Shown here: positions 15,001-63,112 of the stretch, in pieces
How the letters are laid out: every line of letters starts with the position of its first letter
Numbering within the stretch: position 1 is the stretch's first letter
Source of the DNA: Acanthaster planci
Taxonomy: Eukaryota
Assembly: GCF_001949145.1 (NCBI RefSeq)
Contig: NW_019091356.1
Span: 3,888,934-3,952,933, forward strand
Direction: 5' to 3'
Length of the DNA stretch: 64,000 nt
Notes under the pieces: generated by a model
The model's input: the letters and a program-made list of their open reading frames with translations, nothing else
Told to the model about the DNA's origin: nothing
Database searches by the model: none
Position numbers and translations under genes: made by a program

Positions 15001-18000
15001 GCAAGCCTTGAACACCCAGCTGCATGAGTCATTGGACCAAGAGCGTAGCGCCTACGCCGAAAACTCCCACTACGAGAAGTCCACTATTGGTGAGCTGCAG
15101 ACAGTCTTGGACAACGAGAAGTCGCGCAACCTGGACCTGCGGACCCGAGCCAACCAACTGGAGAATGAGGTGGAAGCGCTTCAGAACATGAACGACCGGG
15201 AAAAGAGCCGGAGCTTAGAGGCTTTGGAGGAGGAGAGGGCCGTATGCCGGCAGCTGAAGGCCACCATTGATAGCTTACAGGTACAGACTGGAGGAGTTGT
15301 AGAGGCAGAGCATATCATTACCTTCCATGGGTTTGAGTCAGGGAACCAAGCCTGGTCAATTTTGTTCTTAATACGAGATACAATTTGTTCTTTTTTTGAA
15401 TGATTATATCTTGAAGAATGATTTTGAGAAATTTCATTCCTCTCTTTGTCTGGACAGGTACAGCAAGATGACCTGAATCGCAAACTTGTTGCTGAGCAGG
15501 AACGAGTTGCCATGACTCAGCAGGAATGCGATCGACTGAAGAGCGCCCTCTTGAGCCAGAAAGAGGAAGGCCGCGAGAAGGACATTATCCGGGAGAAGGA
15601 AAGGCAGATTGAACGACAGCGACACAGGGAGAGGGAAAGGGAGAGAGAGCTGGAGAGGCAGAGACAGGTATGGGGTGCCAGACAGGGTGGGGGAGATAGT
15701 GATACACTTGGGGTTGGGGATAGTTAACTTTGGGCTGAAGTGTGGGCGTTTTTGTTACTTCTGGACTTCTCTGGTCGTTTCGTTTTTCCAGAGTGACTTC
15801 CAGTTGGAGCGGGAACTGGACAGGCAGAAGATCCAGTCTTTAGAGCATGAGCTAGAGGAGAACAAGACAGCCCACGAGACAACATCCTCCGAGCTCAAGA
15901 AGCTCCGTGATGCCCAGCGACACTTTATCCCAAGGGTCACAGAGGAAGATTTGCAACAGGCCCATGAGGAGGTCAGTTTGCCTGAACATGTTAGGCCTAC
16001 TATTGCTTGGTTTCACAGATCATTGTGTATGTCGTGAAAGATGCATCTTGAAATTTGAGCAAACATCTGGGGTATAATCAGACTTGAGATCTTCCAGTCT
16101 TCTACCTGAGACTTGACGTTTTGGCTTTGGGATGTAAAATCTTTCACATTTTTGCACAGGAAGACATTTGCAGAGCAGAAAGTAGAAAGCAGATATGTGG
16201 TGGGGACCAGTCACAAACTGTGCACATCTCATGGCATTTTGACTGGTAACCCATGCTTACTGTACCCAGGGTATTGCTTGTTGAAAATTGCAAATGTTCT
16301 GAGTGGTAACTTGCCCCTTTATTGAAGTTTATACTAATATTAACCCCACACGGGAGCTCAATTTGAGAGTGTTGTTGTATACTTAGAGCATGCCATCAAT
16401 GGCCAATCAGCAACAATTTGTTAACCACAGGTTGAATTAGCTTGACACCTAGTATATATTTCATGCATAGGTTACCAGTCGAAATTGACCACTGGTTGAC
16501 AAGGTGTCGCTGGTTGAATTTACCCAATGCTTCAGTATCTCCTCAATCCTCCTCTGTTCAGCAGGAGTTGTCGCGAGGCAGTCAGCATCGCAGTCCCCGC
16601 CCTACCCCCTTGGCGTCCCGTCTGCAGCTCTACAAGGCCCAGCTGGAGGCGGTCCGGCAGAGATTGCAGCTCCTGGCCGTCCGCCAGCAGGAGGAGATCG
16701 CCAAGCTGCTGCGGCTGGGCTTGGAGAGCGACCGGCAGGAGTTGGGCAACCTGCAGCGGGGGCTGACGGAGACGCTGTCGGAGCTCAAGCAACTCCACGC
16801 CTCTCTGGCGCTGCACTCAGAGGTAAACGACAATCAAAATGGCCCTGTCGGAAGGAATAAGGGACATATGACTGTCTTGAAATTAGCGTCTCAGATCTTT
16901 AGCCCAACAAAGCCATCAGGGCTCGAGGGGGGCTCTTTAAACCAGTGGAGCCTGTGATAAAAATGAATGCCAGTACTGAACCAAAACTCAAAAGTCAACG
17001 TCTTTTTACATTGAAGTAGAACAGTTGCATGAAACCTACTTTCAGATCTTATATTATATCAAGATGGTCTCATTTTCAAGAGAGGTGAATTTGAAAGTCT
17101 TGAAGTGGATTTGAGAAACGAATGTCAACATTGATGTGGACAAAATTGTGTTTTGGTTGTCAAGACAAAAACTTGAAAAAATCCGGTAACCATACTTTTT
17201 CTGTCATCCCTTCAGTCTGTTCCGTCTATTGTTACCCCAACGACAACCACCCGCCTGAACGACCGCCTGCTATCCCAGAATGCCGAGCTGAGCAACTTTG
17301 CCTCTCGGCTGAGCGAGGAGAAGACAGAGATGCGGACGGCCCTGGCCAAGCTGGAGGAAGAGGTCTGGCGGTTTAGGCAGCGAGAGGCACAGCTAGACGA
17401 GGTGAGAAATGACAAACAAATAAATCCAATATGGCTTCCTCCCTAGCAACCTGTCAACCTTGTCCTCAGAGGTCATAAGGAGATTGTCACAATACATTTT
17501 CGTGTAGAATGCTTGACAGGATTATCAAAATGGATTGATAACTAAGTTTGTCTGCTGAACGTGTTGTGCTTTGGTTTTTTTTAATTCTCAGGCGACTCGT
17601 CGTTCTTTAGACAACACCGACACAGCTTTGGCAGAGGAACGTGCCCTGTGGAGCAGGGAGAGACAAGCAGCCCAGAATGCATTGCAGAAGGCCGAGTCCC
17701 AGATCGCCCACCTCAAAGCCCAGCTACAGCATGAAGCCAATAGGAGAGATGCAGGAGGCCCTCTGTTGGCAGGAGCAGGAGAGGTCTCTGAGCACCAACA
17801 GCTGAAGGTACTTCCTTCTAATGCAGCAATGAAGCCAAAAGCCTTTTACTTTGAAATTCCTTCATTTTTTGCAGGCAAATTGAACACTAACCCCAACAAT
17901 GCAGTTCAGTTTACAAATGAGACCATTTTATGTGGTTGTCTTACTTTAGAACTTGCTCAAAATATCAAAATGTAGTAAGTTTTTTGAGTCTGAAGATTTT

Positions 18001-19534
18001 TAAGTCGCAATGGACCAAGCGTTGTAAGTCACTGTATTAGACATGCTTTCAACTATAGGCTGTTTTAATCAGGTGTCTTGTGGCTTTGGCAATGACGGAT
18101 TGTTCATAGTGGCCGGAGTATAACTCACCGTTGACTCTGATCAGTTTTCCCCCCCCCCGTACAATCACTTAGTTGCAGAAGATGTACGGCAAGTACCTGC
18201 GGGCAGAGAGCTTCCGCAAGGCCCTGGTGTACCAGAAGCGCTACCTCCTGCTCCTTCTAGGAGGTTTCCAAGACTGCGAGCAAGCGACGCTGCAACTCAT
18301 TGCCAAAATGGGTGCCTACCCAGCCCCTGAATCTCTGGAGAGGCAGTCCCGACACAGCAAGGCCTTCTCAAGATTCAGAAGTGCCGTGCGAGTAGTCATC
18401 GCCGTGTCCAGGTCAGTATTGGAATGAGTAGAAAGGGATGTCAAAAAAACATCTACAAACAAAAGAACCGTACATGTGGAAAAACGTCTTGGAAAAAATG
18501 TAATCGTTTTTTCTTGGAAACAGGTTGAAATTCTTGGTCCGGAAATGGCGACGGGCCACACGTGTTGGCACACCCTCCACCACCCCATCCGTCCACCCAG
18601 ATGTCATGTCCTCTCCACCCCCTCGGGGACTGTCGTCAGCCTCCATCCCTAACATCAGGGTTACTACCCCAGTCAGAAGCTCCCCACCCACGGGGATGCA
18701 TCTCGTCAATGGTGCGTCACCCCCTGTGCGGGACGTCATCGGTCAGTCGGCGTTGCGGACAGTCTTTCCCAGTGGACACCACAGGGCCAGATCCTCCAGC
18801 CCAGTTCTATTCCACGGGTAAGAATTGCATACTTTGGGAATTGAGAGAGTTGTTGAAAGTTTTAACTGGCATTTTTCGTAGTTCTTTCAACTGCTACTTG
18901 ATATAGATGACAAGAACCAATAGGAACATCACTCAGCTTGGAGGGGGTTGATGTGCCATTGATGAATGCCGTAAGACCTAAAGGGTCCATAGCACCCTTT
19001 CCTGAATCTTTTAGGGAGCCCCCCCTCCTTTTGGTCGTAGCCACTCCCCTCCTGATGCAATTTTAGTCACTTCACGAATTAATTCAACTTGGTTCTCATT
19101 CCCACTTTCTTCGCCCCTTTAGAGCCACCTCTCCGTCCCCACGCCCAGACGGCCGGCCCTTAGGGTACCACTCGGCCTCCCCTCTAGACAGACACTTCAG
19201 CAGATCCCTGGATAGACCCCTGGATGCATCGGGGAGCGGGGACCCCGAGGCCTCACTGACCAACTACATCCAGAAGCTGGAGAGTCTTCAGCAGAGGCTG
19301 GGAGCTCACATCTCGGGTAAACAAATAAACGTCACCCGTTGATCGATACGGCAAACTTTGCTTTCAGTGATATTTGGCAGTGCTGTAAGGTGCTGCTCTG
19401 TACCTCAAATAAATCTATTTTTGATTTTTGCATGAATTCTTCTCCATGTCCCTTTATGAAACTTTTCTTGTCCAATCTTTAAATGTCCAGGAGAGAGTAG
19501 AACGACCAGCTATTCCACGTTCTCCAAGAGGTAG
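1..19534 (+). CDS. PCNT/AKAP9: Pericentrin/AKAP9-family centrosomal coiled-coil scaffold with C-terminal PACT domain (5'-truncated by window edge; multi-exon)
   Basis: Phase-consistent exons: <1-119, (982-990), 2942-3195, 3521-3643, 3875-4168, 4672-4830, 5075-5248, 6256-6486, 6609-6770, 6929-7096, 7277-7660, 8171-8480, 9315-9490, 9765-9977, 10299-10469, 10563-10758, 11070-11292, (12092-12112), 13898-14048, 14435-14656, 14996-15280, 15458-15667, 15792-15971, 16562-16822, 17216-17401, 17592-17807, 18173-18411, 18524-18817, 19123-19316, 19491-19534 (TAG). The protein is E/Q/L-rich heptad coiled coil. Family motifs: QFLEQQTIEREQEREEFQREI, LHNEGLQVLSLSD, DWRGRVL, RLLSQNAEL, PACT YGKYLRAESFRKALVYQKRYLLLLLGGFQDCE...FRSAVRVVIAVSRLKFLVRKW, and terminal DPEASLTNYIQKLESLQQRLG. 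Extra exons could be hidden in the N-gaps. Confidence 0.93.
982..990 (+). other. Candidate 9-nt in-frame microexon of the PCNT/AKAP9 gene
   Basis: Long pyrimidine tract, then gtcag|ACCCAAGAG|gtgagt. Phase 1-1; inserts D-P-R between flanking exons with no stop. Confidence 0.6.
5264..6008. other. Assembly gap (N run); further gaps at 9090-9237, 22322-22914 and 37133-37786
   Basis: Runs of N in the sequence. Confidence 0.99.
8661..9004. mobile_element. MITE-like foldback element with internal CCCAACT/AGTTGGG sub-repeats
   Basis: Terminal inverted repeats tgttacgccccaact ... agttgggccgtaaca, with many internal cccaact(g/a)/agttggg motifs in both orientations. Intronic, no ORF. Confidence 0.55.
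12092..12112 (+). other. Candidate 21-nt in-frame microexon of the PCNT/AKAP9 gene
   Basis: aacag|CGGCATAGCGGAGGGAGTTTT|gtaagt. Phase 2-2; inserts GIAEGVL with no stop. Confidence 0.6.
18173..18548 (+). other. PACT centrosomal-targeting domain (exon 18173-18411 plus start of exon 18524-18817)
   Basis: Translation LQKMYGKYLRAESFRKALVYQKRYLLLLLGGFQDCEQATL...RFRSAVRVVIAVSRLKFLVRKW matches the PACT signature of pericentrin/AKAP9. Confidence 0.93.
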
Positions 19535-23793: not shown

Positions 23794-23905
23794 AAAGATG
23801 AACAAAGAAATTGACGGGAGCGAGATTTGAACCTGCGACCTCTGGAATACCGTACCGGTGCTCTACCAACTGAGCTATCTAGCCCTACGTTGGTGGTTCT
23901 TCCCA
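23794..23905 (-). mobile_element. tRNA-derived SINE-like element (copy 1)
   Basis: Minus strand has Pol III A box (tagctcagttggtagagc) and B box (ggttcaaatc) but no acceptor stem. A near-identical copy with the same flanks lies at 60222-60334. Confidence 0.7.
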
Positions 23906-28293: not shown

Positions 28294-31200
28294 CTACGTG
28301 CTGTTGCCATAGATACGAGCATAGCGGCCCAGGGCCCATATTGGAAAGATGTTGCGGTAACTTGTGTAGCTGATTGCACAGGACTTGTTGAATACACCCT
28401 TGATATTTTCCTGCGGTTGGGAAAAACAAGCAACTATTAAAATGAGACAAACATTTCCAATTTTGTCAAATCTTACAATGGGAAATGCTAACTGAATACT
28501 ACTGCATTTTCGAATGAAAGGTCAAAGGTTACTGGAAACCATGTCAAAGGTAATCATTACCTGCGCCCAATCTCCATTTGGTAGCTGTCGGTCCATAATA
28601 ACTTTGATGCCTCGATCAATGACATCACGCTCTGGAAATCTGACCGAAAAAGTTTAACATCTCTTTTTTTAAAAACTGATTGGGTAGTAAACTCTCTTTA
28701 CTGACTTTTAGGCAAACTTCTTTTTTGAAGAGCATAGCAAGGAAAGGACGAACGTGTAAAAGTTTCCTAAGCTTCCAAACTGTCCATTCTTACGGTCAAC
28801 CTCCATACTCAGCATACTTAGCACAGCAAGACCGAGGGTGCATGTTCTTGTAATGCTCTATGCTATAGCATAGATTTTCTTCAAATGAAATTTAAGGAAA
28901 AAAGTCCTACCTGACTGCCATGAGAGCTAGGACCGCCCAAGCCGTGTTGACGACCTGTGATGTCTTGCTTTGGACGTACCGCCTCTCTTCGCAGGATTCA
29001 AACTCCTCCCCCCATCCGCCATCTTCCATCTGCTTGGATTTGAGGAACATGCACGCCCTCCTGATCTGCATGGTCACCGCCCTAGAGAAGGGTCAAAACT
29101 TTTCGTTTTTCGTGTCAACAAAGATGGACAATTAGTGAATAATGGCTGAATAGTTGAGATTGGCGCCCTTACCCTGTTTCATAGCTGTATCCCATGCAGG
29201 CAAAGGCTTCCAGACCAAACCAGCCGGCGTAGGTAAAGCACACACCCCACGACCTGGTTGGAAGGAAACTAAATGTCCAGTAAACTTACAAAAGACTTTC
29301 CTCAATAATCAATGCATCGTGTACATGTTTCAATTTGGCTCGGGTTTCCAGAAATACAGAAAAGTGAAAAACTCTCTTGATTGAGACCTGTCTGGTTCTT
29401 CCAAGAAGTCTAAGGATAATTTTTTTCAGAGCAAACTGACGCACCCTTCCCAGGATCCATCAATCCTTTGCTTCATGGCAATGTACTTCAAGCCCTTGTC
29501 CAACGTGGATCTGATGTCCTCCTTGCGATAGTCAGGATACAGGGTGTTGAATTTCTTCAAGGTTTGCATGACAGCTGAGGTCAACTCCACGTAGGTGTAG
29601 TCAATCATGATATCACCTGCATGAACAAAAGAATTTTTCAAACCTCTAAAACTATTTTGCTGGTTCAGTTCTGCACTGATGTAATGTATGGCACATCTTT
29701 TTCCATACATTCTCAGAGCAAGTGAAAAAAGATTCACCTGCTAACTTAAATGGGTCTTGCTTTCTAGTGCAGATGTCTGATTGGCCAAGCTTGTTTGGGT
29801 GGAGCTGCAGGTACCAGAACTTCAACTGCAAATATGCGAAAAATGACTGAAAATTGATGTTTCAAAAAGGTTCTGGTGAAGAAACTTGAGGGAGAAATTC
29901 ATAATTTGGACTGTAACAGCAGTTTTCTTTTGACTCCTCAGAAAGTCAGAATCTTGCCATTTGTGAAAAAGGCATTACCAAACACTTCAGATGGATTAAG
30001 TTTTTCAAGGATCACTCCCCCTCGCATGGTCTCGTAGGTCGCAAATCCTCCATCTTTGTTACGCATATTCAGAATCTGAAAATAATCACACAGGATCAAA
30101 ATCAATTAGCAAGAACAAAACGGCGTGTCAAATCCGTACCTTTATGAGATCCTCAGTACACAAAAATGACAGATTAAACATCTTCTGTTCCTGAGCAGGA
30201 TATTTTACCACAATGGCGGTGAGATATCTTACCACATCCACAGCTTGACAGTGCCTCTCCTTCTCTATATGGTCTCTGACAGAGGGGCACATTGTCTCCA
30301 GCATCAATGCTGCCTTGAGACCTTCCGCCGTACAGTCAGCTACAATCCAGCCACAGTCACGGGTACTGAATGGATAGCCCCCCTGGAAAGAGAATGGCAG
30401 TTCAGTTTCTGTTGTCACAAGTGACACCAGAGTTCACTGCTGTGAGCAGAAATGTTATGAGTACTGAAGGATATTTGAGACCCATTAACCAGAGCTTCCA
30501 ACACTGAAAAGCCAGAAAGTCTTCATCACCTAACCCTTGACCTTTTAAAGCTGAACTTATCAAGTTCAATCAATCCATACTAGCCAGAAGGCACAATAAA
30601 GAATGGAACAAAATTCCATCCTACTTTTCCTGGGTTCGCTGCGTTTAACCATGACTAAAATCAATTAGAACTCATAGGGCACCATACAACAAAAGAGGAA
30701 ACCCTGTGTTATGATTTTTTTTTTCGTACAGCAAGAGGTAGCATATTCCTGGAGGGACTGACCTTGTTCATTTGACGATAGTACTTTTGATAGTTGGGTG
30801 GATTGTCAGGGATCTGTGTAAGCTTCAGGAAGTCATGGGTGTGCTGCAGGCAATCATGTAGCTCCTTGTTCTTTGCTGCTCCAGCTTCCAAGAAGGCCTG
30901 GGCAGCGAAAGCCGTGTCCCAGAGCTGTGACCCATTGGTTCCCTGCAGCCAAGCCAACAACAGACAGCCGTCAAGGAAGTACACAAAATAATCATCACTC
31001 TGGCTCAAAAGCTGGCGAGTTAAACCAGAACATGGGAACTTCCACTTGAAATTAAAAAGTTCTGGAACCTTCTGCTAACTTGACTTAAGAAAATGACTGT
31101 TTTTATTGGAATTTTCATCGGAATGTAAGTTGGTATCCTGCAGAAATGTTTGGCAATGTATGAGCATGCACTGAGAAAACAGAACGTTCGTTTGAGAAAA

Positions 31201-34200
31201 AAAAGTTTGACAGAGGGAAACATTCCACATTGAGGACTTGTTCTTTAGTTTTAGGTCGACAACAGGAAAGACTTCAGAATCAACAAAGCCTCATGGGCCT
31301 CTTTCACATTTGAAGAAAACTACAACTAAAAATTTATAAGAGGTTAGATTTTTGTTCAAAGAAAATGATAAACAAAATTACCTGCATTTTCATGCCATCT
31401 AAACCAATCCTGAAATGAAAAAACAAAACAAAATATTTAATCATAACAGCCCTTTTTGTTAAAAAGGAAAACTTTCGAAACCAATTACAACTCACCAAGA
31501 ATCATTCCATAAACCAAATTCCATTCCAAAACAAGACAAAACTATTCCAAATTGAAGCAGTTGCGTAGTTCCAAAATAATTTAGTGTTACATTTTAACAA
31601 TGTTGTCAATAGCCAGCATGTGACCTTAGATTAGCAAGTAGACACCTACATAGACAAACTGACAAACAAACTGTACCAGAGGTAATCTGGGATACGTTCC
31701 ACGTGTTGTTTAAAGACCTGAGAGTCAGGTCCATCCGTCAACCATCTCACCAACATGTTGATGACTTTAGAAATCTGTGAACGAAATCAACCAATCAACT
31801 AAATAGCTCACAGCAACTTTCTGTAGAACCTACAAACACAAAAGATGTTGTACACATGCCCCTAGACCATCTGTTGTGCTCAAGATGAAACATTACTACC
31901 CTCGATCTCAAGGCCTATAAATCACTTTGAAAAACTTCTTTTTTATTGTTCCAGCTTTTCGAGAGAGAAAAAGCAAATCAGAAGACACAAACTGGATATA
32001 AGATAATTGGACTATCAACATTATGACATTACTATGCGTGTTCTTCAGGCCCTGATGAGGTTGATCATCTGAAATATTTTGCAAGAAAGCAATTAGCCAA
32101 CTCTGCCCTCCCAAAAACTCCTGAAATGGGAGGAGCCTCTTGAGATAATGTGCCTTGCCCAAGGACACTCATACAGCAAGTCCAACAGAATTAATTCATT
32201 GTCTTATATTTGACACATTACACCGCTAAGCTGAAATGCTCAACCTTACAACCATCACGGGTTGCTCCTTTTTCAAATCGTAACCAACTTGTGGCAAACT
32301 GTCCTGCTTCTGGACATACACACTATCAAACGGTTACACACTTACAGGCCCAATGCTAATGCACTTGGTGAACTGATCATCAGCTCGAATGTGATCAAGG
32401 CACTCATCAAGAGCCATCTGGCGAAAGTAAGTGGAATGATACGGCTCGTAGACGTCAAGGAAACCTGTCATGACAAATATCACATGGAATTCTTTAAAAC
32501 GCTCAACAGGTATTTGTTCTCTTGTTACAAACAAGCAAAGCAAAGGTAGAGGTTAGTAGAGACCACTTACCAAAAGCTAGATTGTAGAGCCAGCTGTGGG
32601 GTGTGTAGAGATCTATCTTAGCGATGTTGTCCCTCTGTGCAGGCCAATTGATGGTATTGTAATCTTGTATGTAGAGTTCCTGAAAGGGAAATGAGAGGAA
32701 ATGTAGAAATCAGAACAAAAAAGAGGAAAATGTTCAGAGGGAAAACCACTTCCCTCATCCCAAGGGAAATCGCCAACTTTTACACAATAAACAGAAGTGT
32801 TGACCACAAAAACAGAACAACTAGCGATGGATGAATGATGGGGGTTGGTGGTTTGAATCCCACCTGAGCTTGTCTTGGTGTTTATTCCTTAACTTCCATA
32901 GTTCCCCGATCACATCATTTTCTTTGGCCTCATGCATAATCCCAGAGCAGTAGCTCAAGGAAGGGTGCAGTTATAGAGCATTCTATGACTGGTGGTTCGA
33001 ATCCCACCTAAGCTTGGTAAGGACATTTTGTTTACGTTTCCCTCTGCTAAAATTAGATTAATCCTTTTTAGCCAGATTTCAATACCACAGCAATAGTTAA
33101 CAGGAGGAGAGCACATAATATAGTGACTGGTGGTTCGAATCCCACCTGAATACGTCATGGCTATTTCTGCTCACCTTTCGCAGTTCTCTGATCAAATCAT
33201 CTTCCTCAGCTTGATACTTGACCCCGTAACAGTAGCTCATGGGTAGGTAGACTTGCCGACAATGGCACCAGATGGTGGATGGATGGGCTGGAATCCACGT
33301 CGGAAACAGCCTTAATTCAGAACAAAAACAATTTGTTTCATTTTCAAAATTCTCGGCTAATTATTATTGTCATTACTACTTTTGAGGATTTTCATTTTTC
33401 AAGCCATTTGCTAGTTAGTTTCAAGTTCTTTCACCCACATTTTTCATTACTTTGCATTTGTGTTTCAACCTGTGTTAACCATTTTATGAAGCTTTAGTCA
33501 TCGTTCTGAAGGAGGTTAAGGTGCCATGGGTTTAGGAGTATGATGGACGAGCCTATTGTTACTCTGAAAAAACTAAAACAGCAATGGGACCCTAATGACC
33601 CCCCCCCACTCCAAAAAGACCACTTTGATGACTTGCCAAAGTTCCGGAAAGAGAGTGTGCATTCCCTCCCAGCTATAGACATTAAGGACTGACAGCCAGA
33701 ACTTGCCCCAAGATGGAATGGCAGCGGCTCCTCCTATAGACAACATACAGCACAGCTTGAATTAGTATTTGAGGCTATGGCTACGACTTTTGCTACTGAG
33801 TTGCTTGTGACATTGTGGCTTACATGCTCAGTTTGATAAGGCCAAAGACGCTGTTATAGTCTAAGGCAAATAAAGAAACAAACAGGGACAGTGTTACAAA
33901 ATGCTGTGAACTGATATTTTGGAAAACAGGAAGATGGTGTAAAGTTACCAGTTTTCTCACACAAAATGTCAAATCTTTCAACACAACAGCAAAAGTAATG
34001 TTATAGCCTTGTAATTATTTCATGATAACGCCAATTTCCTTCTGTTCTATGGGTTGATTTTAACCAATAAATGCACTCGAAATTTTATAATAATTTCTCA
34101 ATTTTTGTTCATGCTTTCACATATATACCGATTTACATAAATGCAATCCCATCCCGATGAAAACTGGTCTTTATTTTGCTGGTACCTAATGAATGAAGTA

Positions 34201-37200
34201 ACTTCCGGCATTTGACCAGATCTGGGTCATCAGCAGACACACCGAGCAATCTCATGGCCACGTAGTTAGTGGCACAACCAAAGACTGTAGCTGGGCCTTC
34301 GATATGTCTGGCAAAAAATGTACATCAACGTCAATTTATTTGCCGGTATTCTGCAACGTTAACAAAGAATTTTGCCAAGAGAAAATGAAAACTGTAAAGA
34401 TAAAGAATAAAATACCCTAAAAACTGCAACAGATTTAATCAGTTTGAAAATACAGAGCTTCTGGCGCATAAAATGTTGTGGGACGAATACCCAACCCAAA
34501 AAGTTTTCAAAAAAGCAACATAACTAATCAAACATACATGTACACTGCACAAACACTTGGGATGTCTGTCCCATGCACACTAGTGAGTAGGATCTACAAA
34601 CAGTTCATGCAACACCCGGTTTGAACAGAGTTCATGCAATAAAAGTTGACAGTTGACTCTCTTTGGATGAATTCAACAAAACATGCTGGTAGTGGAAATA
34701 AAAAAAGCGACGATTAAACATTCGCTACTCCGGAAAATGCAAGACGGAACGCAGTAAAAAGAAAGGATTATTTGCTGGTACGAATATGGACACTGCATTT
34801 GAGTTTTTTTGACATTTTGGTTTGTGTGCTTGTTTCGTCTCGCGCTTGGCTTAAGGATGCATTGATTGAATTCAGACTTACAATCCCCATCCACCATCCG
34901 GGCATTGTACGGAGCGCAGGTACCGGACCATCTCTTTCTTGACTGCATCCTGTAACTCTGTCTTGGTAATGTAGCACACAATCAGGAGTCCTGTCAAGAT
35001 CAGGGCAGAAAATGTGTTGAAAGTTTTAAAGGTGTAAGATGACAACTGGAAAGTCAGAAAAAGGAAGGAAATTGGAGCTTCAAGAGACTTTGTACAGTGC
35101 TTTTTTTTTCTATTTCTTATGGGGTACATGAGGAGTGGAAACAAGGAAAATTACATGATCTAGGGAAAAAGTTGCACGCTTGGAATTCGGACTAACAATG
35201 AACCCCTTGCTAAAGTGAACCAGGATATAAGAAAGAAGATCTCTCTAGCTTATTTTAGGGGAGGGTCAAAGGTCACAGGTCACCTGGCATGAGGAAGAGA
35301 GGGCCACCATAGTCTCCACTCCAGTGGCCATCCTCTGTCTGAAGCTTGGAGTAGAAAAGCATCCCGTTTGTTGCTACCTCTTGGGGCGTGGTAGGCTTAG
35401 GGAGGGGTGGAGCCTCTTTGCTCTGAAAGGCGAAAGTGGTTTAGGGTGGAATATGAGCCTAGCTTGTCTCTTAAATTAAAGAAATTGTTTTTAACATTTC
35501 ATTTTATGGTTTGACTCAAATAAGAGTAACATGTCTTTTCAGATTTGACCTTTCAGATTAAGAAGTCAGAACAAGCTTAAGAATATAACTTTCCAATGAT
35601 TTTCTAAAAAATTTTGTTTCATTTTTACAAATACCCTTCAGCCATGTTATGATAAGTTCCTCTCACAAGAACTCAGAAACAATCTCCCTACATGGAAATT
35701 AACATGTGGATAGTGTACAATGCGTGAGGTGGCACACAGCCAGCCAACTACAGCACAGCTTTATCAACTATTTAAAACTGGTCATGTGACATGCTCCTGA
35801 CTATATAGGAATGGCTTAATTGTTTAAGGAATTAATGAAATAAGAATACAACTTTAGTGTCAAAGACTCCTTGGGTTAAATTTTTTAATGAAAATCTCCA
35901 GCAGGTAGTTTTTATGCAACCAACAAAATCCACCTAAAAAGGCCCCAGCTGAAAATGACACAAATTTAACAATCTAGCATCTGTCTTAACTCTGTTGGAA
36001 TCAAATCAGCACTGAAATAAATAAATTTCAAATTTATTTTGATGTTAAAAATCATTGTTGGAAATAAATTGGATCAGTTTACACAAGTTCAAGCAGCTTG
36101 ACATAAAGTAATTTCCAGATACTGGAATGTCAGAAAACCCAAAATAGATTGTTCTATAAATAGTTGACCCACGTTGCCACCTTCCTCTCTACAAACAATA
36201 GATGGTCTCTTGGTAATATCAGTAACTATCAGTGCACACAGTATCAAAATAACCAACGACAATGGCAAGAGATAAATTATTGGATTATTTTTAGAAATTA
36301 TTCTCTGGGGATATAAATAGGTTCTTCTGCTGATCTGGGTGAAGAATATCTTTCTGAAGAAATGTAGCTCATATAAGATCCAAACTTGTTAAACTATGTC
36401 AAAAATCAAACTGCAGGGCTTGGTTTTGAAATGCTTCAAGTGCATTTTAGTTCAAAGAGTTCTTATTTTCCTTATTGATGGTCAATAAGCACACAATGAC
36501 CATTAGCAAAGTTTTGAAAATGTCCACCTTTTAATAATCACTGTTCACATGCCAAACTGCCAATCAAGATGGTTTAATCAAATTTAATTCATCTTTAAGC
36601 CACTTTTTACATGAAAAACAACAATTTGAGTGAAAAAAATTATAATTCTACAGAAGCCCATTAGTGCCAATTTTAACTTGGCAGAAATATATTTTATTGT
36701 GAAATAACACAATAAGTTTGCAAAATAACGCACCAGTATGGCAAAATAACCCAATAATTTTTACGAAGTAATCCATTAATGCAAAACAACACGGCAGTTT
36801 TGGTGATGTTATGAATGTTGCGCCCTCTTGTGCTTTGCCTCACTGCGCACGCAACGCACGCTAAGGTCACATGTCATACTTCCATTCTGGGTGCTTTCGT
36901 GCAGTTCCTCCTGTTAACAGGAGTACGATGCGTGCGCATTAAACTTGGGTCCAGGAACACATCCTCCCTCTAGTGAGAGTATACTCTCGCTGACCTGTGG
37001 GTCATACTCCAGCCATTCCAGCGCTCAGGAGTATACTCCTGTTAACATGAGTGACTGGTCCAGTCACTCAACCATTGTAGCTTTCTGAGATTACTCATTT
37101 GAATCTGATGTTTCAGGTCAGGTTGCAGCATANNNNNNNNNNNNNNNNNNNNNNNNNNNNNNNNNNNNNNNNNNNNNNNNNNNNNNNNNNNNNNNNNNNN

Positions 37201-38061
37201 NNNNNNNNNNNNNNNNNNNNNNNNNNNNNNNNNNNNNNNNNNNNNNNNNNNNNNNNNNNNNNNNNNNNNNNNNNNNNNNNNNNNNNNNNNNNNNNNNNNN
37301 NNNNNNNNNNNNNNNNNNNNNNNNNNNNNNNNNNNNNNNNNNNNNNNNNNNNNNNNNNNNNNNNNNNNNNNNNNNNNNNNNNNNNNNNNNNNNNNNNNNN
37401 NNNNNNNNNNNNNNNNNNNNNNNNNNNNNNNNNNNNNNNNNNNNNNNNNNNNNNNNNNNNNNNNNNNNNNNNNNNNNNNNNNNNNNNNNNNNNNNNNNNN
37501 NNNNNNNNNNNNNNNNNNNNNNNNNNNNNNNNNNNNNNNNNNNNNNNNNNNNNNNNNNNNNNNNNNNNNNNNNNNNNNNNNNNNNNNNNNNNNNNNNNNN
37601 NNNNNNNNNNNNNNNNNNNNNNNNNNNNNNNNNNNNNNNNNNNNNNNNNNNNNNNNNNNNNNNNNNNNNNNNNNNNNNNNNNNNNNNNNNNNNNNNNNNN
37701 NNNNNNNNNNNNNNNNNNNNNNNNNNNNNNNNNNNNNNNNNNNNNNNNNNNNNNNNNNNNNNNNNNNNNNNNNNNNNNNNNNNNNNTGTCAAATATTAAA
37801 ACCAAAAGCAAGAATTAAGTCAAACCTGACATGACAGCAAGATATTGACAGCAAAAGAAGCAACTAGTGAACTTTTTTATTACTCACAATATCCAGTCCT
37901 AAGCTGAACTTTTCCACAAAGTTCTGCTCTCTTTCGATGGGTTGGCCTTCCTCGATGTACCTCCAGCATTGTCGGCCATCGACGTTTGACAGACGCCATC
38001 TCGTTAGGTCAGTGACTGGCTGTGTCTTGTGTGGGCCTCCTCTGTTGCGTCGACTACTCAT
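28294..38061 (-). CDS. LSS: Lanosterol synthase (2,3-oxidosqualene cyclase), 725 aa, 18 coding exons
   Basis: Exons (minus): 38061-37888, 35422-35284, 34990-34882, 34307-34186, 33733-33637 (GC donor), 33310-33175, 32679-32571, 32464-32346, 31774-31677, 31409-31382, 30942-30763, 30382-30233, 30075-29979, 29616-29445, 29253-29173, 29081-28911, 28639-28561, 28410-28294; total 2178 nt, open frame. Motifs: [26 protein letters not shown] repeats ([36 protein letters not shown]), [14 protein letters not shown], catalytic [14 protein letters not shown]. Lanosterol-type residues T381/C449/V453 (human numbering) are present. Confidence 0.97.
32840..33150 (+). repeat. Three degenerate tRNA/SINE-head fragments in an LSS intron
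   Basis: B-box-like ggtggtt(t/c)gaatcccacct(g/a)a occurs three times (about 32847, 32990, 33129). The middle copy has an upstream A-box-like cagtagctcaag. Confidence 0.55.
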
Positions 38062-39777
38062 TATGGTAAAATCCTTGCTAGAAGGCATGAAAAAATTCAA
38101 AATGAATTAAATTGTCGGTGATCAAACAGATCTGAGCCTTGGAAACCAGCCATCCAAAATGACGAAAAATATAAAAAACAAAATTCTGAAAAAATTGTTG
38201 GTTCAAGTAACGGACTACCCCCACAACTGTGGGGTCTGACGTCTGCCCCGCTCCCATGGGGCGGAAGTCGGACCCCACAGTTCTGGGGGGGGGTAGTGAC
38301 GGACATGACTGTATAGTCACCAGGTCACTTATTGCACGACTTACTGTCAAAAACTAATTAGACTTGACAATAGGTGGTGAAATTAGGGACCTGGGGACTA
38401 TAAGCCTACCGTCACGCTAGCCCCCCCCACTAGTGTGGCACGGACTCTCGCTACCGCTCCATCCTTCGGTAGCGAGAAGAGTCCTTGCCACACTAGTGGG
38501 GCTACCATCACGCATGTTATTCACAATTACAGCCATGGCAACGTCTACTTTTGTGGTAAAATACTGCACTGCAACAGTATGGTGTCTCCCTGACAATCAC
38601 ATCTGTTACCATGGATACCTCTCATTGATGAATTTAGACTCATACTGCACGACAAAAATGGTTTCAATTTTTGAAAACTAGCAAAGGCGAGCATCTGTAC
38701 ACGATGACGCATGCAGTATTGACAAGTCCAAAAACTGGAAGCAACAGGCAACAATAATGTGGATTCTTCTGCCCTGGAAAATTGAAAAGTCTCTAGAATC
38801 CTTGCCATGCTACATGTAGGTGCTGGAAGCCAAGAAGCAGGATAGCCAAATCAAAAAGGACCCTGAAGAAGTCGCTGAGAAAGTGGCCTAGGCCTTACGT
38901 TAGGCCTTGTACATACATGTACATGTACAATACATGTACATGTGCGTTGCAAGGCTGCAACCAGCAGCAGGTTTTGGCTTAAGCCCTACTTTGACTTGTC
39001 TGCAAGTTGTAAGATACCGACTTTTGAAGTATTGAATGTTCTCACATGTACACTTTAGAAATACATAAATTCTTCATACTCACAGACAGTTTTTCTGCGT
39101 TCAGCTCTCGGTAGTAATATTTTTATATTAGAAACTACTGTTAGGTATGCACATGTACATGTATGTGGTGCTAGGCATTGCTAGAGAAAGACCATGGTTC
39201 TCAATGACGCGAAGCACAGCCGAAGTCCATGTTCGTCTTGTATCTAATGCCTTTTATTTACACCTTTGAACTCTGATCCCAAATATATAAATAATTTATA
39301 ACTGTGCTCCGCCTACTCCTTGCGAATACGTGCAATTAGTTTGTTTAATCATTGCAATTGTGCAATACAATAAAAGGCAAACGCATCCTAAGTTTTGCCA
39401 GAGAAAAATGCTTTCAAAATCAAATATTTTCCTTACGTGAGAATGACTCTTTACTTCAGAATCCTTATTTCATACAGAATTTATTTGTTATTCAGTTATT
39501 TATATAAACAAGCTTATTATTCATGACTCACTCTGATTGGTTACTTTTGACCCTAATGACCTAGAAATCCTCGGACCACTGCCGGCACATGTAAATGATT
39601 AGCTTTGTACACGGCCGTATCACAGTCTGTTTGTGCATGTAGTGTAGGGTAGGGTAAATAATTGTCTCTCGCTCGATCACTGAATCGGCTGATTTCTCAT
39701 CAATTTGCGCACACTCAACTCAGTTGCCTGCTTCTTCTCTTCCAGAGGGAGTTGTCGGCTTGGATCAGAAATCCATC
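38062..39777. promoter_or_regulatory. Divergent (bidirectional) promoter / 5'UTR region shared by LSS and CYP51
   Basis: Start codons face away from each other, 1717 bp apart. Contains palindromic TTTATATAAA (39499-39508), TGACTCA (39524-39530), a reverse CCAAT box (gattgg 39535-39540) and TGACCC-taa-TGACCT (39548-39562). Splice acceptors just upstream of both ATGs imply non-coding first exons. Confidence 0.6.
38212..38508. repeat. Two adjacent palindromic hairpin (MITE-like) elements in the LSS 5' region
   Basis: 38212-38300: ctacccccacaactgtggggtc ... gaccccacagttctgggggggtag. 38417-38508: tagccc..cactagtgtggcacggactctcgctaccg ... cggtagcgagaagagtccttgccacactagtggggcta, a stem of about 35-40 bp. 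Confidence 0.65.
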
Positions 39778-42700
39778 ATGGCATCTTCAGGAGCCGGGAG
39801 TTCGCTGGTGGAAGGGGCGATCGGACGATGGCAGGAGACGAGCACATTGACCATGGTGCTTGTCACCACGGCGTTTGTGCTTGTCGTCGGGGCGGTGTTC
39901 CGTAAGATGTTGGGAGGGGCAGACAGAAAATCCGTAAGAGCCATGGTCATGATCATGCATTGATAATGTTTCTTTTCATTTATTTTAAAATCGAAAAATT
40001 ACCATTTTTTATTAATTTTGAATGAATGTCGAGAGTGGCACTTACATGTAAAATATCCTTTTATTTTAAAATAGTTTATTCCCCGGTCCCGCACTTTAGC
40101 CCTTACGAGGCCGGCCTAGGCCCTACCTGGGCCAAGTTCCTCCATGGATTGACATACCTGAACTCATCTTCTAATCAATGCCGTTCTTATTTTGAAAATT
40201 ACACCTTCAAATTACGCTTCCTTTCTTTCGATTCTTTATTATTTATGAGTTCCATACACGGACAACATGAGATGCTCCTGTGTATGCACAAACCTATGAT
40301 GAGACTTGTCTGAAAAAAAACAACATGTTTTCTAAGTAGGGCCTCATTGCTTCAGAATTTTCTTAGCTAAACTTTTCAGGACATTATCACTTCATTGCTG
40401 TTACAATATTCAAGGGAAGATTAGTGTTGTCCAAGTATGGAACTCCTTCCTTTATGGCATGTCTGGAAAAACTGTTATTTACAAATATTACTTTGCAAGT
40501 GTAGTTTTCGCCCAATTATATTTTGGGGGGGGGTTGATGTAAGTCACCAACATCAATATTAGGCTTGTGTATTTGTCCCCGCATCTTTAAAGTTGAGAAT
40601 GTTGATTAAAAGTGTTCGGTGCTGTTCTTCATCTAATCATTAATCAATGTTTTATTTTTCAACATTGAAGTTCTCCACTTCTCGTTTCTGCTGCAGAACA
40701 TCAAAGTGCCCCCATACATTCCCGGTATTCCTTTCCTGGGAAAAGCAGTTGAATTTGGAGCAAACCCCATCAAGTTCCTTGAAGATGCTCACAGAAAGGT
40801 GCTGAATTGTTACCACTTTTCATATTTGTGTCCTTACTAAGAAACAGCAAACAAGTCAAGTTCTGTTCATTTTGTGAAAATTTTATAATTGATCATCCAT
40901 GTGTGTTCTCTATGCAAATTAGTTTATTGATCATTCCATCTTTTTAACTTACAGCTTCAAATTTAGTTACGCTCTTTGTGTTTGAAAACCACCAAGTAAA
41001 CATTTCCAGTGGCTCTAATTATTTTTTGTTTGGGGGTTGGCCTTTTTTTCAATCCCAGTATGGTGAGATTTTCAGCTTCACGATGGTGGGCCAGACCTTC
41101 ACTTATCTGATTGGTCCAGAGGCAAGTGCACTCCTCTTCAATAGTAAAAATGAACAGTTGAATGCAGAGGAGGTCTACGGTCGTCTGACCACACCCGTGT
41201 TTGGGAAGGGCGTGGCTTATGATGTTCCTAATGCTGTGAGTATCTTTTTTTTGTGGGGGTGATACCTTCCAGCACAGACATTAGGTCGAGTTTTCATATG
41301 AGTTTATTTGTGCTTTCAAAATCCTGATGTAGACTTGTTGCTGAACATGGCATATGAAACCTTTATTTGGATGTTTGAACAAAGCAAAATGGACTGATAA
41401 CAGAGATCAATTTGGTTCAATAAGATTCAAGCTTTGCAATTTGATATTTTTTGAGGCTTGTAGCTGACCTTTGAAACTCAGATATGAACTATTTTTATTG
41501 ACACTTTGTTTTGTAAGTTTTGTTGTCTTAGATATTCAGTCTATATTTGGATGAATCACTTTGTTGTACCTGAGCCAAAATAATCGTTCAGAGATCCATC
41601 TTTGAGTTAATGGAGAAAAATGACTCGTAGATACAATTAATTTTGGTTGAATTGATAAAAGTTATCAAAACCTTCTGCCACAGATTTTCAAATGTTGTTA
41701 CTATGGCAGCAAGAAATCTGACCCATGAAATCTCTCTTGTAATTTCATTCAACCCTGCCATTTGTTTTCCGAAAGTGGAGACAAGTTTTGATTTCAATTT
41801 TTTTGCTGGCACCTGCAATATGTTTTGATGGTGTGGTCAGATGGATTATTTGCAGAAGCTAGTTTCTAAACAGTTTGATGTGAGCCTACTAGCAGATAAC
41901 AGAGAAAAAGTGCTCTTGAAATGTTCATTTTGTACTTTTTTTCTGGCAGAAATTCTTGGAGCAAAAGAAGATCTTCAAGTTGGGCTTGAACATTGCTCAA
42001 TTTCGTAAGCATGTGGAACTGGTCCAAGAAGAGACAGGAAACTACCTGACAAGATGGAAGAAAAGCAGTGGCCAAGAAAGTGAGAATTCTTTTGCGCCAG
42101 GCGCCCTCAAAAAATCTCACATTTTGTTGCAGTTTTGAATTTTGAAACAGAAGCAGATTTTGTGTCCAGACATTCATCACCTTGGTTTGATAAGAACCTT
42201 ACTGGTTAAAGGTTACATCTCTGTTGAAATTGTTAGTTGTGTAATTAGTGAAAAACGTCTTCTTGCAAGCTTGGTTAAATAAAATGATTTTTTTCTTCCA
42301 GATCTGTTCGTAGCAATGTCAGAATTGATCATTCTCACTGCTAGCCGCTGTCTACATGGTAATGTATCACGTCTTCTTCATTCATAATGCCATTTAGAAT
42401 TGTCAAAAGGCAAAATTAGCAATAATTTTTAATTTTTATTTAGTGTTACACGAGTATGAATTGCTTTAAATTTGAAATCTATGTAGATTTTAAGAAATGT
42501 AAGAATCAATCAATAACATTATGTATATGTAGATTCTGCCAGTACAGATCAAGGCAATTTTGTCCCTGAGCCAGACACATTACCACAATAGCTTTATCTA
42601 AAAGTATCAGAACTTCTTCTGCAATGACCTCATTTACCAGACAAATTACTGTCAGAATTCCCTGTAGAACAAACTGTATAATTCCTCACTTTTCCTGCAT

Positions 42701-45242
42701 GAGACTTTTTACTTCCCAATGTTAATTCCACCAATCAGGGAAAGAGATCCGCTCACAGCTTGATGAGCGTGTGGCTCAGTTGTACATGGACCTAGACGGG
42801 GGTTTCAGTCATCTAGCCTGGCTCTTTCCCAGTTGGATACCCTTCCCAAGCTTCCGCAAGCGGGACCGTGCCCACCTGGAGGTCAAGAAGATCTTCTACA
42901 AGGTAACCAAAAAAAGAAATCCAGATATGTCTTTCAAATTTTATAATATGGTGTGAAAGAGACTTTAATTTACACTTTCTGGTCTCTCTGAAGTCTGCAC
43001 CCCTCTGCATTAAATGGAAGAATCTCCTAACTGTCACTTCCCTAGTCTTGAATGTATCATCCGTCCACTAATCTTATAAAAAAATGTTTTCATTTTTGAC
43101 CTAAAATTTTGTTCTGGTCAACGTTTTCATAATGTCGGAGATGTTCAGGAAAACCGAGAGAAAAGTAACAAGAGTTTTTTTCTTTCTTTTCAGGCTATAA
43201 AACAACGCAGGGCTTGTGATAATCCTGATGATGATATGCTTCAGACACTAATTACGACGGCATACAAGTAAGTTTAGTCCCAACAATTTGACCACCAGGC
43301 TACCTGTGACAGTTCTAGCACACATGGCTGTCTCACCCATAGCCTGGGCTCCATACAGCACATGAATCCCTATTAATGCTGTGAACTGAGAACAAAGACT
43401 GTTTACTTTCATGTGGTATGGTGTTCAAGTTATCATTTCCATCTGGAGACCTTCTTGGTAGCCTGGATGCCACCCTGTTTAAGACAATTTTCTAATTGCA
43501 CACAAAATCTCAGAAACCTTAACTTTTCCTGTATTGTTTTTGCGCAGAATAGTCTCTCAGAAATCTTTTGTAACAATGGCCACTTTGACTGTTTCAGGAA
43601 TGGGGAGTTGATGACGGATGACGAGGTAGCCGGGATGTGCATAGGCTTACTGTTGGCCGGCCAGCATACGTCATCCACCACTAGCTCCTGGCTAGGATTC
43701 TTCCTAGCTAAGGACAAGGATCTCCAGGTAGGAATGGGTGTTAGTGCCAGGAGGGGGAGGGGCTTAGAGAAAGGATTTAGTAGGCGAGTAACGTATGGAG
43801 AATTTATACATTGAAGCATTCTCTGCAATATACTAAATATACTAAACTTTTTTACAGTTGTGGTTTTTTTGGTTTTGGTGATTTAGGAACGTTGTTACCA
43901 AGAGCAACTGAGGATATGTGGCCCTGATGTGGATGAACCATTAACATATGACCAGGTAAATGTAACATTTTGTAAAAAAATCGTATTTTCTTGCTTAGTA
44001 ATACATTATTTTACAGACAGAACTAGGTAAAACTTGTTTTTTCTTCATCTGATATGTTTGGCAAAATCTAAACAAGGAGACGAAGATATTTACCTAGCTG
44101 GAGATGTATTTAGAAATGTAGGTTCTTAAAACAGATTCAAGTCTTTTCCAAGTATTCATGAATTATTTATGTCCCGATTTATGCATAGGTAAAGGACATG
44201 ACGCTATTGGACCGTTGCCTGAAGGAGACCTTAAGGATACGCCCACCCATCATGACCATGATGAGGATTGCCAAGGTGCCTTTGGTGAGTAGGTGATTTA
44301 ACCTCAGCTTGCTTAGGACAGTTACTTCATAAAAACGGCTCATTAAAATGTACTTGGACTAGTTTTGCTTTTTGAAGCTGAGGCCGTGTCTGAAACAGGC
44401 TTCTAGAGCTACAACGGCTAAGTCTATTGTCAGCACATCTCTGTGTATTTCCAATGGAGCGAAGACCTTGACCTCGCTCTAGACAACAGATATGGATGCA
44501 GCCTGAGTGCTTAGAGAGCAGGGAAACTTAATTCTTGTGAAATCAACAAGATGTATTCATGAAACGGCTGTTGTGTCCCCGCGCAGACTTTCAAGGATTA
44601 CGTCATTCCGCCTGGGCACCAGGTGTGCGTCTCACCAACCGTCAACCAACGCATTGAGGACCAGTGGATGCCCGAACCTTTGACCTTTAACCCTGATCGG
44701 TAAGACTTCCTCTTTACACAACTACCACAAGACAAATACCACCATCTTGGCATGTTGCCACATAGCAAAGCATTCTGGGACAGATTGGGGCCAAAAAGAA
44801 AGAGAAATTAATCAGTTTATTTTGTGGCTTCAGCTTTGTGGTCATTTTATTGGACACTATTTGTCATCCAATGCTTTTCTTCACATCTTAATATTTTGAC
44901 TTTAGATGAACACATTTTCTATCATGTCTAACATCTGAAAATGATGTCGTAATTATTCTACCGGCCATTATGAAGCTATTGAAAACCTTTGATTTTACTC
45001 ACCACAGTTTCATTGACGAGAATGCTTCTAACAGCGACAAGTTCTCCTACGTTCCCTTTGGGGCCGGGCGGCATCGTTGCATCGGGGAGAATTTTGCCTA
45101 CGTCCAGATCAAGACCATCATGTCGGTCCTCATCCGCAAGTATGAGCTGTCTCTTGTGGACGGTTACTTCCCCACCATCAACTACAGCACCATGATCCAC
45201 ACACCCTACAAGCCCATCATCGCATACAACCTCAGGAAGTAG
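39778..45242 (+). CDS. CYP51A1: Sterol (lanosterol) 14-alpha-demethylase, cytochrome P450 family 51, 500 aa, 12 coding exons
   Basis: Exons: 39778-39933, 40697-40798, 41059-41235, 41950-42079, 42302-42358, 42739-42902, 43194-43267, 43598-43727, 43887-43955, 44189-44284, 44587-44699, 45008-45242; total 1503 nt. Has an N-terminal membrane anchor, [14 protein letters not shown]51 signature [21 protein letters not shown]-helix [10 protein letters not shown], ExxR (ETLR), FNPDRF and heme motif [10 protein letters not shown]. Confidence 0.97.
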
Positions 45243-62972: not shown

Positions 62973-63112
62973 GATCAAGAGCTGGAGACAACTTGAGGAG
63001 TGGCACCTGGAACCGGATGACAATCTCTGGCAGTTGTATCAAAGAAGGAGGGTGGAACTGGAGGAAACGTCAAAACAGAAACCTAACCGGACCGACTCGA
63101 TTTGAGATCAAG
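62847..63112 (+). repeat. Exact 133-bp tandem duplication spanning the EXOG C-terminus and stop codon
   Basis: 62847-62979 is repeated at 62980-63112 (agctggagacaacttgagg...gactcgatttgagatcaag). Confidence 0.9.

What the first reader, a model, noticed from the sequence alone, without database searches (positions are those of the whole stretch)
28294..45242. Head-to-head LSS-CYP51 pair: a two-gene sterol biosynthetic cluster in an animal genome
Seen: intact LSS (minus) and intact CYP51 (plus) diverge from a shared region of about 1.7 kb with no gene between them. Established: LSS makes lanosterol and CYP51 carries out the next step (14-alpha-demethylation). The two genes are on different chromosomes in human, and pathway clusters are rare in animals. 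An oxidosqualene cyclase plus CYP51-family pair is the core of the oat avenacin triterpene cluster. Inference: this is a co-regulated, operon-like sterol module with a bidirectional promoter. It may be ancient, and one event could lose or silence both steps, which is relevant to sterol auxotrophy in invertebrates.
Basis: partly seen in the sequence, partly recalled or inferred. Interest (0 to 1): 0.88.

Follow-up and report, generated by a model that had tools for sequence, protein, structure and literature searches.

The report
Ancient back-to-back sterol enzyme gene pair
In the crown-of-thorns starfish, the genes for two consecutive cholesterol-pathway enzymes sit back to back with their transcript starts about 0.4 kb apart; the pairing is already reported in sponges, likely dates from early animals, was likely split in vertebrates by genome duplication, and may run from one shared promoter (untested).

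Summary
Observation confirmed. The window is Acanthaster planci. Intact LSS (minus, 28294-38061, 18 coding exons) and CYP51 (plus, 39778-45242, 12 exons) diverge with no gene found between them. RNA reads bridge an assembly gap inside LSS and reveal a non-coding first LSS exon at 39084-~39240, so the 5' ends lie about 0.4 kb apart, not 1.7 kb.

The pair looks ancient. It is published for four sponges (PMC13483135) and apparently drawn for echinoderms (PMC9236903). By an accession/contig proxy it is adjacent in a brachiopod and a hemichordate, and on one contig in 11 of 24 invertebrates, but 0 of 5 urchins and 0 of 12 vertebrates. The next gene is the PACT gene; in primates one PACT paralogue (AKAP9) abuts CYP51A1 and the other (PCNT) lies four genes from LSS, as reciprocal loss after duplication predicts.

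Both enzymes look canonical, so the avenacin analogy is weak. Shared regulation is plausible but untested, and no SRE was found. 'One event loses both' is contradicted by sea cucumbers.

The parts
2875..19340 (+). PACT-domain coiled-coil gene (pericentrin/AKAP9-like); coding exons seen over this span, 5' end not mapped; tail to tail with LSS
   Evidence: Coiled-coil ORFs; PF10495 PACT at 18176-18412, E 3.7e-25
28294..38061 (-). LSS (lanosterol synthase) coding region, 18 coding exons, 725 aa
   Evidence: Exact threading 725 of 725; tblastn; human LSS 1w6k 1155 bits; 5 introns shown with reads, 46 further joints not listed
37133..37786 (.). Assembly gap (654 N) inside the first coding intron of LSS
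   Evidence: bridged by spliced reads 35422->37888/9 in 3 of 3 RNA runs
38078..39083 (-). LSS 5'-UTR intron (1,006 nt) holding dispersed repeats (inverted-repeat elements 38218-38289 and 38425-38501; ACATGT-rich repeat 38908-38945)
   Evidence: Joint 38077->39084, CT..AC, in 4 of 4 runs; repeats; very high contig depth
39084..39240 (-). LSS non-coding first exon (5' end approximate; faint reads in the 39234-39309 bin); holds up to 5 upstream ATGs
   Evidence: Read depth; ATG count
39240..39637 (.). Interval between the two 5' ends, about 0.4 kb, 34% GC: candidate shared promoter
   Evidence: Zero depth 39310-39537 in 4 of 4 runs; molecule ends at 39637 and 39654 in X19; one DNA contig piece 38921-39945 spans it and both first exons
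39548..39562 (-). Perfect DR3-type nuclear-receptor-like element; nearby inverted CCAAT (39536), AP-1-like site (39524), TATA-like runs (39284, 39295, 39499). Leads only
   Evidence: Only DR3 in the window; 38 of 5000 gap shuffles give any two-half-site element, but 9 of 151 real tiles do; pattern chosen after seeing the site
39637..39777 (+). CYP51 5' UTR, unspliced in the reads laid
   Evidence: Continuous depth from the 39614-39689 bin onward, no joint listed here
39778..45242 (+). CYP51 (sterol 14-alpha-demethylase) coding region, 12 exons, 500 aa; AGQHT 307, ETLR 366, haem motif 440-449
   Evidence: Threading 499 of 500; Patiria CYP51 covers 1-500 in order; best solved lanosterol 14-alpha demethylases about 720 bits against 348 for fungal; 8 of 11 introns shown with reads

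Best explanation
The starfish's LSS and CYP51 genes are intact, expressed and divergent, with 5' ends about 0.4 kb apart; they are likely a neighbour pair inherited from early animals that probably shares one bidirectional promoter, which would keep lanosterol production matched to its demethylation. Shown here: gene structure, expression, the short gap, canonical active-site residues. Inferred from proxies and papers: the same adjacency in sponges, a brachiopod and a hemichordate (ancestry about 0.9). Inferred: the vertebrate split came from reciprocal loss after duplication of a PACT-LSS-CYP51 block, AKAP9 keeping CYP51A1 and PCNT keeping LSS (about 0.75). Inferred and untested: shared cis-elements hold the pair together (about 0.55). 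The link is breakable: urchins, limpets and vertebrates separated it, and sea cucumbers lost CYP51 alone.
For: Structure and expression. Residues matching human H232, T381, F444, C449, V453, D455, F696 are present here and invariant in 15 of 15 invertebrate LSS (F444 as the lanosterol determinant, the others recalled). Conservation: consecutive accessions on one contig in Lingula (XP_013417877/878, 272-kb scaffold) and Ptychodera (XP_070566081/082); both genes on one 640-kb scaffold and on one 86-Mb chromosome in Amphiura; same contig in 4 of 4 sea stars, 2 of 2 hemichordates, 1 of 1 nemertean; adjacency in four demosponges (PMC13483135 section 2.6). PACT link: PF10495 next to LSS; AKAP9 and PCNT are the only mammalian PACT proteins and paralogues; AKAP9 > < CYP51A1 in squirrel monkey; human order LSS, MCM3AP, YBEY, C21orf58, PCNT. 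Ancient conserved pairs are enriched for 5'-5' orientation, <1 kb gaps and co-expression. LSS and CYP51 levels share rank order in 4 of 4 runs over about a 25-fold range (ratio 0.22-0.40) and in 3 of 3 runs by junction counts (X15 is in both sets).
Against: No SRE-like site (up to 1 mismatch) lies between the genes, and no GC box or E-box. Orientation and distance outside A. planci were not seen, and the proxy cannot give them. The pair is on different contigs in 13 of 24 invertebrates (5 of 5 urchins, 8 of 10 gastropods, some on fragmented assemblies) and in 12 of 12 vertebrates, so constraint is not absolute. Six runs from three studies, with no unlinked control gene, cannot separate cis from trans co-regulation. 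The gene next to the PACT gene is LSS here but CYP51A1 in primates, so an inversion must be assumed. Amphioxus and lamprey were not testable (no CYP51 accession obtained).
Confidence: 0.6

Rival explanations
1. Ancient but passive neighbours. The pair is an ancestral adjacency that survives in slowly rearranging genomes because a short intergenic gap is a small breakage target. Each gene has its own promoter, and any co-expression comes from common trans factors such as SREBP.
For: Broken in 5 of 5 urchins, most gastropods and all vertebrates tallied, which still keep both genes; the PACT gene, unrelated to sterols, also appears to have stayed linked; no recognisable shared sterol element.
Against: Adjacency across sponges, a brachiopod, a hemichordate and echinoderms is long for a neutral pair; consecutive pathway steps in 5'-5' orientation with a 0.4-kb gap match the features of cis-constrained pairs.
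Confidence: 0.3
2. Repeated independent assembly: selection brought LSS and CYP51 together separately in sponges, lophotrochozoans and ambulacrarians.
For: Patchy distribution; OSC-CYP51 clusters have arisen separately in grasses.
Against: Needs several rare translocations; same-chromosome retention in Haliotis asinina, Biomphalaria glabrata and Lineus and the AKAP9/PCNT pattern fit decay of one ancestral block.
Confidence: 0.05
3. A specialised, avenacin-like saponin gene cluster assembled in sea stars.
For: Sea stars make steroidal saponins from the lanosterol route (PMC9236903 abstract); oat and wheat clusters pair an OSC with CYP51 family members.
Against: Canonical residues in both enzymes; one LSS and one CYP51 entry recovered for A. 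planci; no tailoring genes among the neighbours, which are a PACT gene, a SAP-domain gene and endonucleases; the pair occurs in animals unrelated to sea-star saponins.
Confidence: 0.04
4. Assembly artefact: the adjacency was created by scaffolding across the N gap.
For: A 654-N gap lies between the LSS ATG exon and the rest of LSS; no single contig spans the whole region.
Against: RNA joints bridge the gap and tie LSS to the exon at 39084; one DNA contig piece (38921-39945) from another run spans that exon and CYP51 exon 1; same contig in three other sea stars.
Confidence: 0.01

Closest known systems
Sponge lanosterol synthase (AcT2TS1)-CYP51 (AcP450_35) pair in Acanthella cavernosa, Geodia barretti, Halichondria panicea, Xestospongia testudinaria (PMC13483135; section 2.6 and passages read, figure not seen)
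   Same: The same two orthologous genes adjacent in an animal genome; lanosterol synthase validated in yeast.
   Different: Reported for demosponges only; the text read gives no orientation, promoter analysis, bilaterian comparison or vertebrate history.
Echinoderm OSC neighbourhoods, Thimmappa et al. 2022 Extended Data Fig. 10b (PMC9236903; passages and part 4 of 9 read, figure and supplements not seen)
   Same: The legend says OSC neighbourhoods are drawn with CYP51 in orange and a red cross for its loss in sea cucumbers, which implies the linkage was noticed in echinoderms.
   Different: The text read does not state adjacency, orientation or species; my proxy puts the two genes on different contigs in 5 of 5 urchins.
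Conserved ancient microsyntenic pairs with bidirectional promoters, e.g. HSPD1-HSPE1, HADHA-HADHB (Irimia et al. 2012, PMC3514665; section 7 and passages read)
   Same: 5'-5' orientation, gap under 1 kb, functionally related products, deep conservation.
   Different: LSS and CYP51 are not named in the main text (the supplementary pair list was not seen); this pair is broken in vertebrates; shared promoter function is untested here.
Oat avenacin (Sad1/Sad2) and wheat ellarinacin OSC-CYP51H clusters (PMC9169793; passages read)
   Same: An oxidosqualene cyclase next to a CYP51-family P450.
   Different: The plant clusters use duplicated, neofunctionalised CYP51H enzymes for defence compounds; here the canonical housekeeping orthologues are paired, with no tailoring genes nearby.

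Membership tests
Lanosterol synthase (animal LSS) | DCTAE protonation motif and lanosterol-type residues (human H232, T381, F444, C449, V453) | tested here: met
   residue roles other than DCTAE and F444 are recalled
Lanosterol synthase (animal LSS) | Makes lanosterol from 2,3-oxidosqualene | not testable with these tools
   Shown for the Patiria miniata orthologue (92% identical) in PMC9236903
CYP51 sterol 14-alpha-demethylase | Orthology to animal CYP51A1 with I-helix AGQHT, ExxR and haem-cysteine motifs | tested here: met
CYP51 sterol 14-alpha-demethylase | 14-alpha-demethylase activity | not testable with these tools
   Inferred from orthology
Bidirectional (head-to-head) gene pair | Divergent genes with transcription starts under 1 kb apart | tested here: met
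   About 0.4 kb between RNA-seq 5' ends; not CAGE
Bidirectional (head-to-head) gene pair | Shared cis-elements drive both directions | not testable with these tools
   Needs reporter or CRISPR work; motif scan inconclusive
Bidirectional (head-to-head) gene pair | Correlated expression above matched controls | tested here: inconclusive
   Same rank order over six runs but no control gene
Conserved ancient microsyntenic pair | Adjacency in several deeply diverged lineages | tested here: met
   Direct in A. planci; proxy in Lingula, Ptychodera, Amphiura; literature for four sponges. Proxy, not coordinates
Conserved ancient microsyntenic pair | Conserved 5'-5' orientation across lineages | not testable with these tools
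   No animal genomic loci could be fetched; the metagenome scan gave none
Specialised triterpene biosynthetic gene cluster (avenacin type) | Duplicated, neofunctionalised OSC/CYP51 plus tailoring enzymes of other classes | tested here: not met
   Canonical residues; neighbours are PACT, SAP-domain and endonuclease genes
Operon (polycistronic unit) | Same-strand genes on one transcript | tested here: not met
   Opposite strands, separate spliced mRNAs

The most novel reading that the evidence does not exclude
The last common ancestor of sponges and bilaterians carried LSS and CYP51 head to head under one promoter, a two-gene sterol switch kept in several phyla ever since. It was dismantled in vertebrates by reciprocal loss after genome duplication (the scar being AKAP9-CYP51A1 and PCNT-LSS) and broken in echinoderms in step with sterol chemistry: intact in sea stars and brittle stars, separated in urchins, and CYP51 lost in sea cucumbers that accumulate 14-methyl sterols. 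With no classic SRE, it may answer to a nuclear receptor through the DR3 site.
Probability: 0.35. Interest if true: 0.75.

Novelty: new member of a known kind. Interest (0 to 1): 0.55.

Why it matters
Same-pathway enzyme pairs conserved across animal phyla are few, and this one covers two consecutive core steps of sterol synthesis, the trait behind the steroid biomarker record and invertebrate sterol auxotrophy. A 0.4-kb interval is a small, testable target for how invertebrates regulate sterol synthesis, and echinoderms offer a natural experiment (linked, unlinked, CYP51 lost). The AKAP9/PCNT pattern would explain why the human genes are unlinked. The adjacency itself is not a first report in animals.

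Tried and rejected
No whole genome was held, so copy number was judged only from protein searches. My first guess that both genes have 5'-UTR introns held for LSS only; CYP51 reads run unspliced over the AG near 39745 (29 loose-end rows not shown). My first guess of amphioxus was rejected: the exon matches A. planci LSS at 100%. No RNA holder was listed in the run index; evidence comes from laying raw-read runs. SRE search: 33 matches with up to 1 mismatch in the window against 42 expected, none between the genes. The DR3 site is unremarkable against real tiles (9 of 151 carry some two-half-site element). A metagenome scan with an animal CYP51 alignment returned 80 loci; apart from two short 61-65% contigs of about 1.7 kb, they match at 30-41% identity, and none of the 80 holds a cyclase (only 34 are 12 kb or longer), so it says nothing on animal orientation. 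Accession distance cannot exclude adjacency: the truly adjacent A. planci genes are 13-23 numbers apart, so gaps of 68-651 in other species are uninformative. Paper searches that found no statement of a pan-animal head-to-head pair or of the AKAP9/PCNT link: (open-access library only). A cytochrome P450 synteny paper I recalled (Nelson et al. 2013) is not held and may discuss CYP51 neighbours. Scan look-ups returned only bacterial sterol loci or nothing.
Full report
Identity and gene structure. An LSS exon from the window matches a protein named lanosterol synthase-like [Acanthaster planci] at 100%, so the window is crown-of-thorns starfish. That 725-aa protein threads exactly onto the minus strand in 18 blocks from ATG 38061 to the stop at 28294-28296. 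The A. planci CYP51 entry threads 499 of 500 residues in 12 blocks from ATG 39778 to the stop at 45240-45242. LSS aligns end to end with human LSS and has DCTAE plus the residues matching human H232, T381, F444, C449, V453 and F696, invariant in 15 of 15 invertebrate sequences aligned. F444 is the determinant of lanosterol product according to PMC9236903; the roles of the others are recalled. CYP51 scores about 720 bits against the best solved lanosterol 14-alpha demethylases and 348 against fungal ones. Both look like ordinary housekeeping enzymes.

Is the adjacency real? Spliced reads join 35422 to 37888/9 in 3 of 3 RNA runs (16, 27, 33 reads). A second joint, 38077 to 39084, appears in 4 of 4 runs (47, 45, 6+4 and 1 reads) and defines a 1,006-nt 5'-UTR intron and a non-coding first exon. 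A contig piece from DNA run X8 (38921-39945, 2 other letters, 6 gaps) spans that exon and CYP51 exon 1, so the link does not depend on the scaffolding. No protein or RNA gene was found between the ATGs (4 of 13 ORFs scanned).

The promoter is smaller than stated. LSS first-exon depth falls off at about 39233-39240, with faint reads in the next bin. CYP51 depth begins in the 39614-39689 bin, with molecule ends at 39637 and 39654 in X19, and depth is zero over 39310-39537 in 4 of 4 runs. The 5' ends are thus about 0.4 kb apart, inside the <1 kb signature of bidirectional promoters cited in PMC3514665. The libraries appear unstranded and this is not CAGE. The interval has no SRE-like match. It has the window's only perfect DR3 element (39548-39562), an inverted CCAAT, an AP-1-like site and TATA-like runs. 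I chose the DR3 pattern after seeing it, and 9 of 151 real tiles carry some two-half-site element, so these are leads. Expression co-varies: identical rank order in 4 of 4 runs over about 25-fold with ratios 0.22-0.40, and in 3 of 3 by junction counts (six runs, three studies, X15 in both sets). With no unlinked control this does not show cis coupling.

Conservation. No animal genomes could be read directly, so I used contig lengths and accession order from protein look-ups (hand-tallied). LSS and CYP51 have consecutive accessions on one contig in the brachiopod Lingula (272-kb scaffold; also consecutive EukProt numbers) and the hemichordate Ptychodera. In the brittle star Amphiura both lie on one 640-kb scaffold and on one 86-Mb chromosome. 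Same contig: 4 of 4 sea stars, 1 of 1 brittle star, 2 of 2 hemichordates, 1 of 1 brachiopod, 1 of 1 nemertean, 2 of 10 gastropods, 0 of 5 urchins; 11 of 24 invertebrates in all, and 0 of 12 vertebrates. Species with only one gene recovered (amphioxus, Saccoglossus, Trichoplax, Amphimedon, Ephydatia and others) were left out. Some mismatches may reflect fragmented or different assemblies, same chromosome does not mean adjacent, and the proxy gives no orientation.

Prior art. PMC13483135 (section 2.6 read) reports a validated lanosterol synthase adjacent to CYP51 in the sponge Acanthella cavernosa, with conserved colocalisation in three more demosponges. PMC9236903 has an Extended Data figure of echinoderm OSC neighbourhoods with CYP51 drawn in and crossed out for sea cucumbers (legend read; figure and supplements not seen). 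So the pairing in animals is known. In the open-access library, searches found no statement that it spans sponges and bilaterians, is head to head, or relates to AKAP9/PCNT. Subscription papers and unseen supplements, including the pair list of PMC3514665, could contain it.

A neighbour that would explain the human split. The next coding gene I found beyond the LSS 3' end is a long coiled-coil gene ending in a PACT domain (PF10495, E 3.7e-25); an N gap at 22322-22914 lies between. Pericentrin and AKAP9 are the only mammalian PACT proteins and are paralogues (PMC7725499 passages). CYP51A1 abuts AKAP9 tail to tail in squirrel monkey (PMC10415907 table passage; human 7q21 recalled), and human 21q22.3 reads LSS, MCM3AP, YBEY, C21orf58, PCNT (PMC13723271 passage). 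One starfish PACT gene beside both sterol genes, and two vertebrate PACT paralogues with one each, is the pattern expected from block duplication and reciprocal loss. Dating this to the vertebrate genome duplications is inference, and an inversion must be assumed.

Mechanism and limits. The most likely reading is an ancestral 5'-5' pair held, where it survives, by a shared promoter that matches lanosterol formation to its demethylation. The benefit (avoiding build-up of 14-methyl sterols) rests on recalled biochemistry; sea cucumbers, which lack CYP51, do accumulate such sterols (PMC6018497 passages). The main rival is passive inheritance with trans co-regulation. PMC6627624 and PMC13412492 (passages) add nothing on linkage.

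Verdict. Real, expressed, probably ancient, and partly in print. The new parts are the 0.4-kb gap, the spread across bilaterian phyla by proxy, and the AKAP9/PCNT trace. New member of a known kind; interest 0.55.

Noticed in passing
window 54300-63000: Two divergent genes with DNA/RNA non-specific endonuclease domains (PF01223; endonuclease G/EXOG-like by recall), one on each strand, apparently head to head near 57-58 kb; likely an inverted duplicate pair.
   Followed up: partly
window 46000-52300 (minus): SAP-domain gene with weak Tho1/MOS11 C-terminal matches (SARNP/CIP29-like by recall), tail to tail with CYP51. Human SARNP lies near HOXC (recalled), which would fit a Hox-linked ancestral chromosome for this block.
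   Followed up: partly
window 25300-26140 (minus): Coding-looking, stop-interrupted segments with splice-like ends between the PACT gene and LSS; no Pfam match. Pseudogene or non-coding RNA.
   Followed up: partly
window 39084-39240: The LSS non-coding first exon holds up to five upstream ATGs and is polymorphic for 6-nt deletions near 39151-39159; possible uORF control.
   Followed up: no
window 23812-23884 and 60240-60313: Weak tRNA-like matches, probably tRNA-derived repeats; similar fragments recur in an LSS intron near 32840-33140.
   Followed up: no
window 44378-44506: Very high-copy transcribed repeat in a CYP51 intron (about 400 reads deep in each of three RNA runs).
   Followed up: no
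protein hits: All five sea urchin species have LSS and CYP51 on different contigs, unlike sea stars, the brittle star and hemichordates; a tardigrade (Paramacrobiotus) has an LSS, notable for an ecdysozoan.
   Followed up: no
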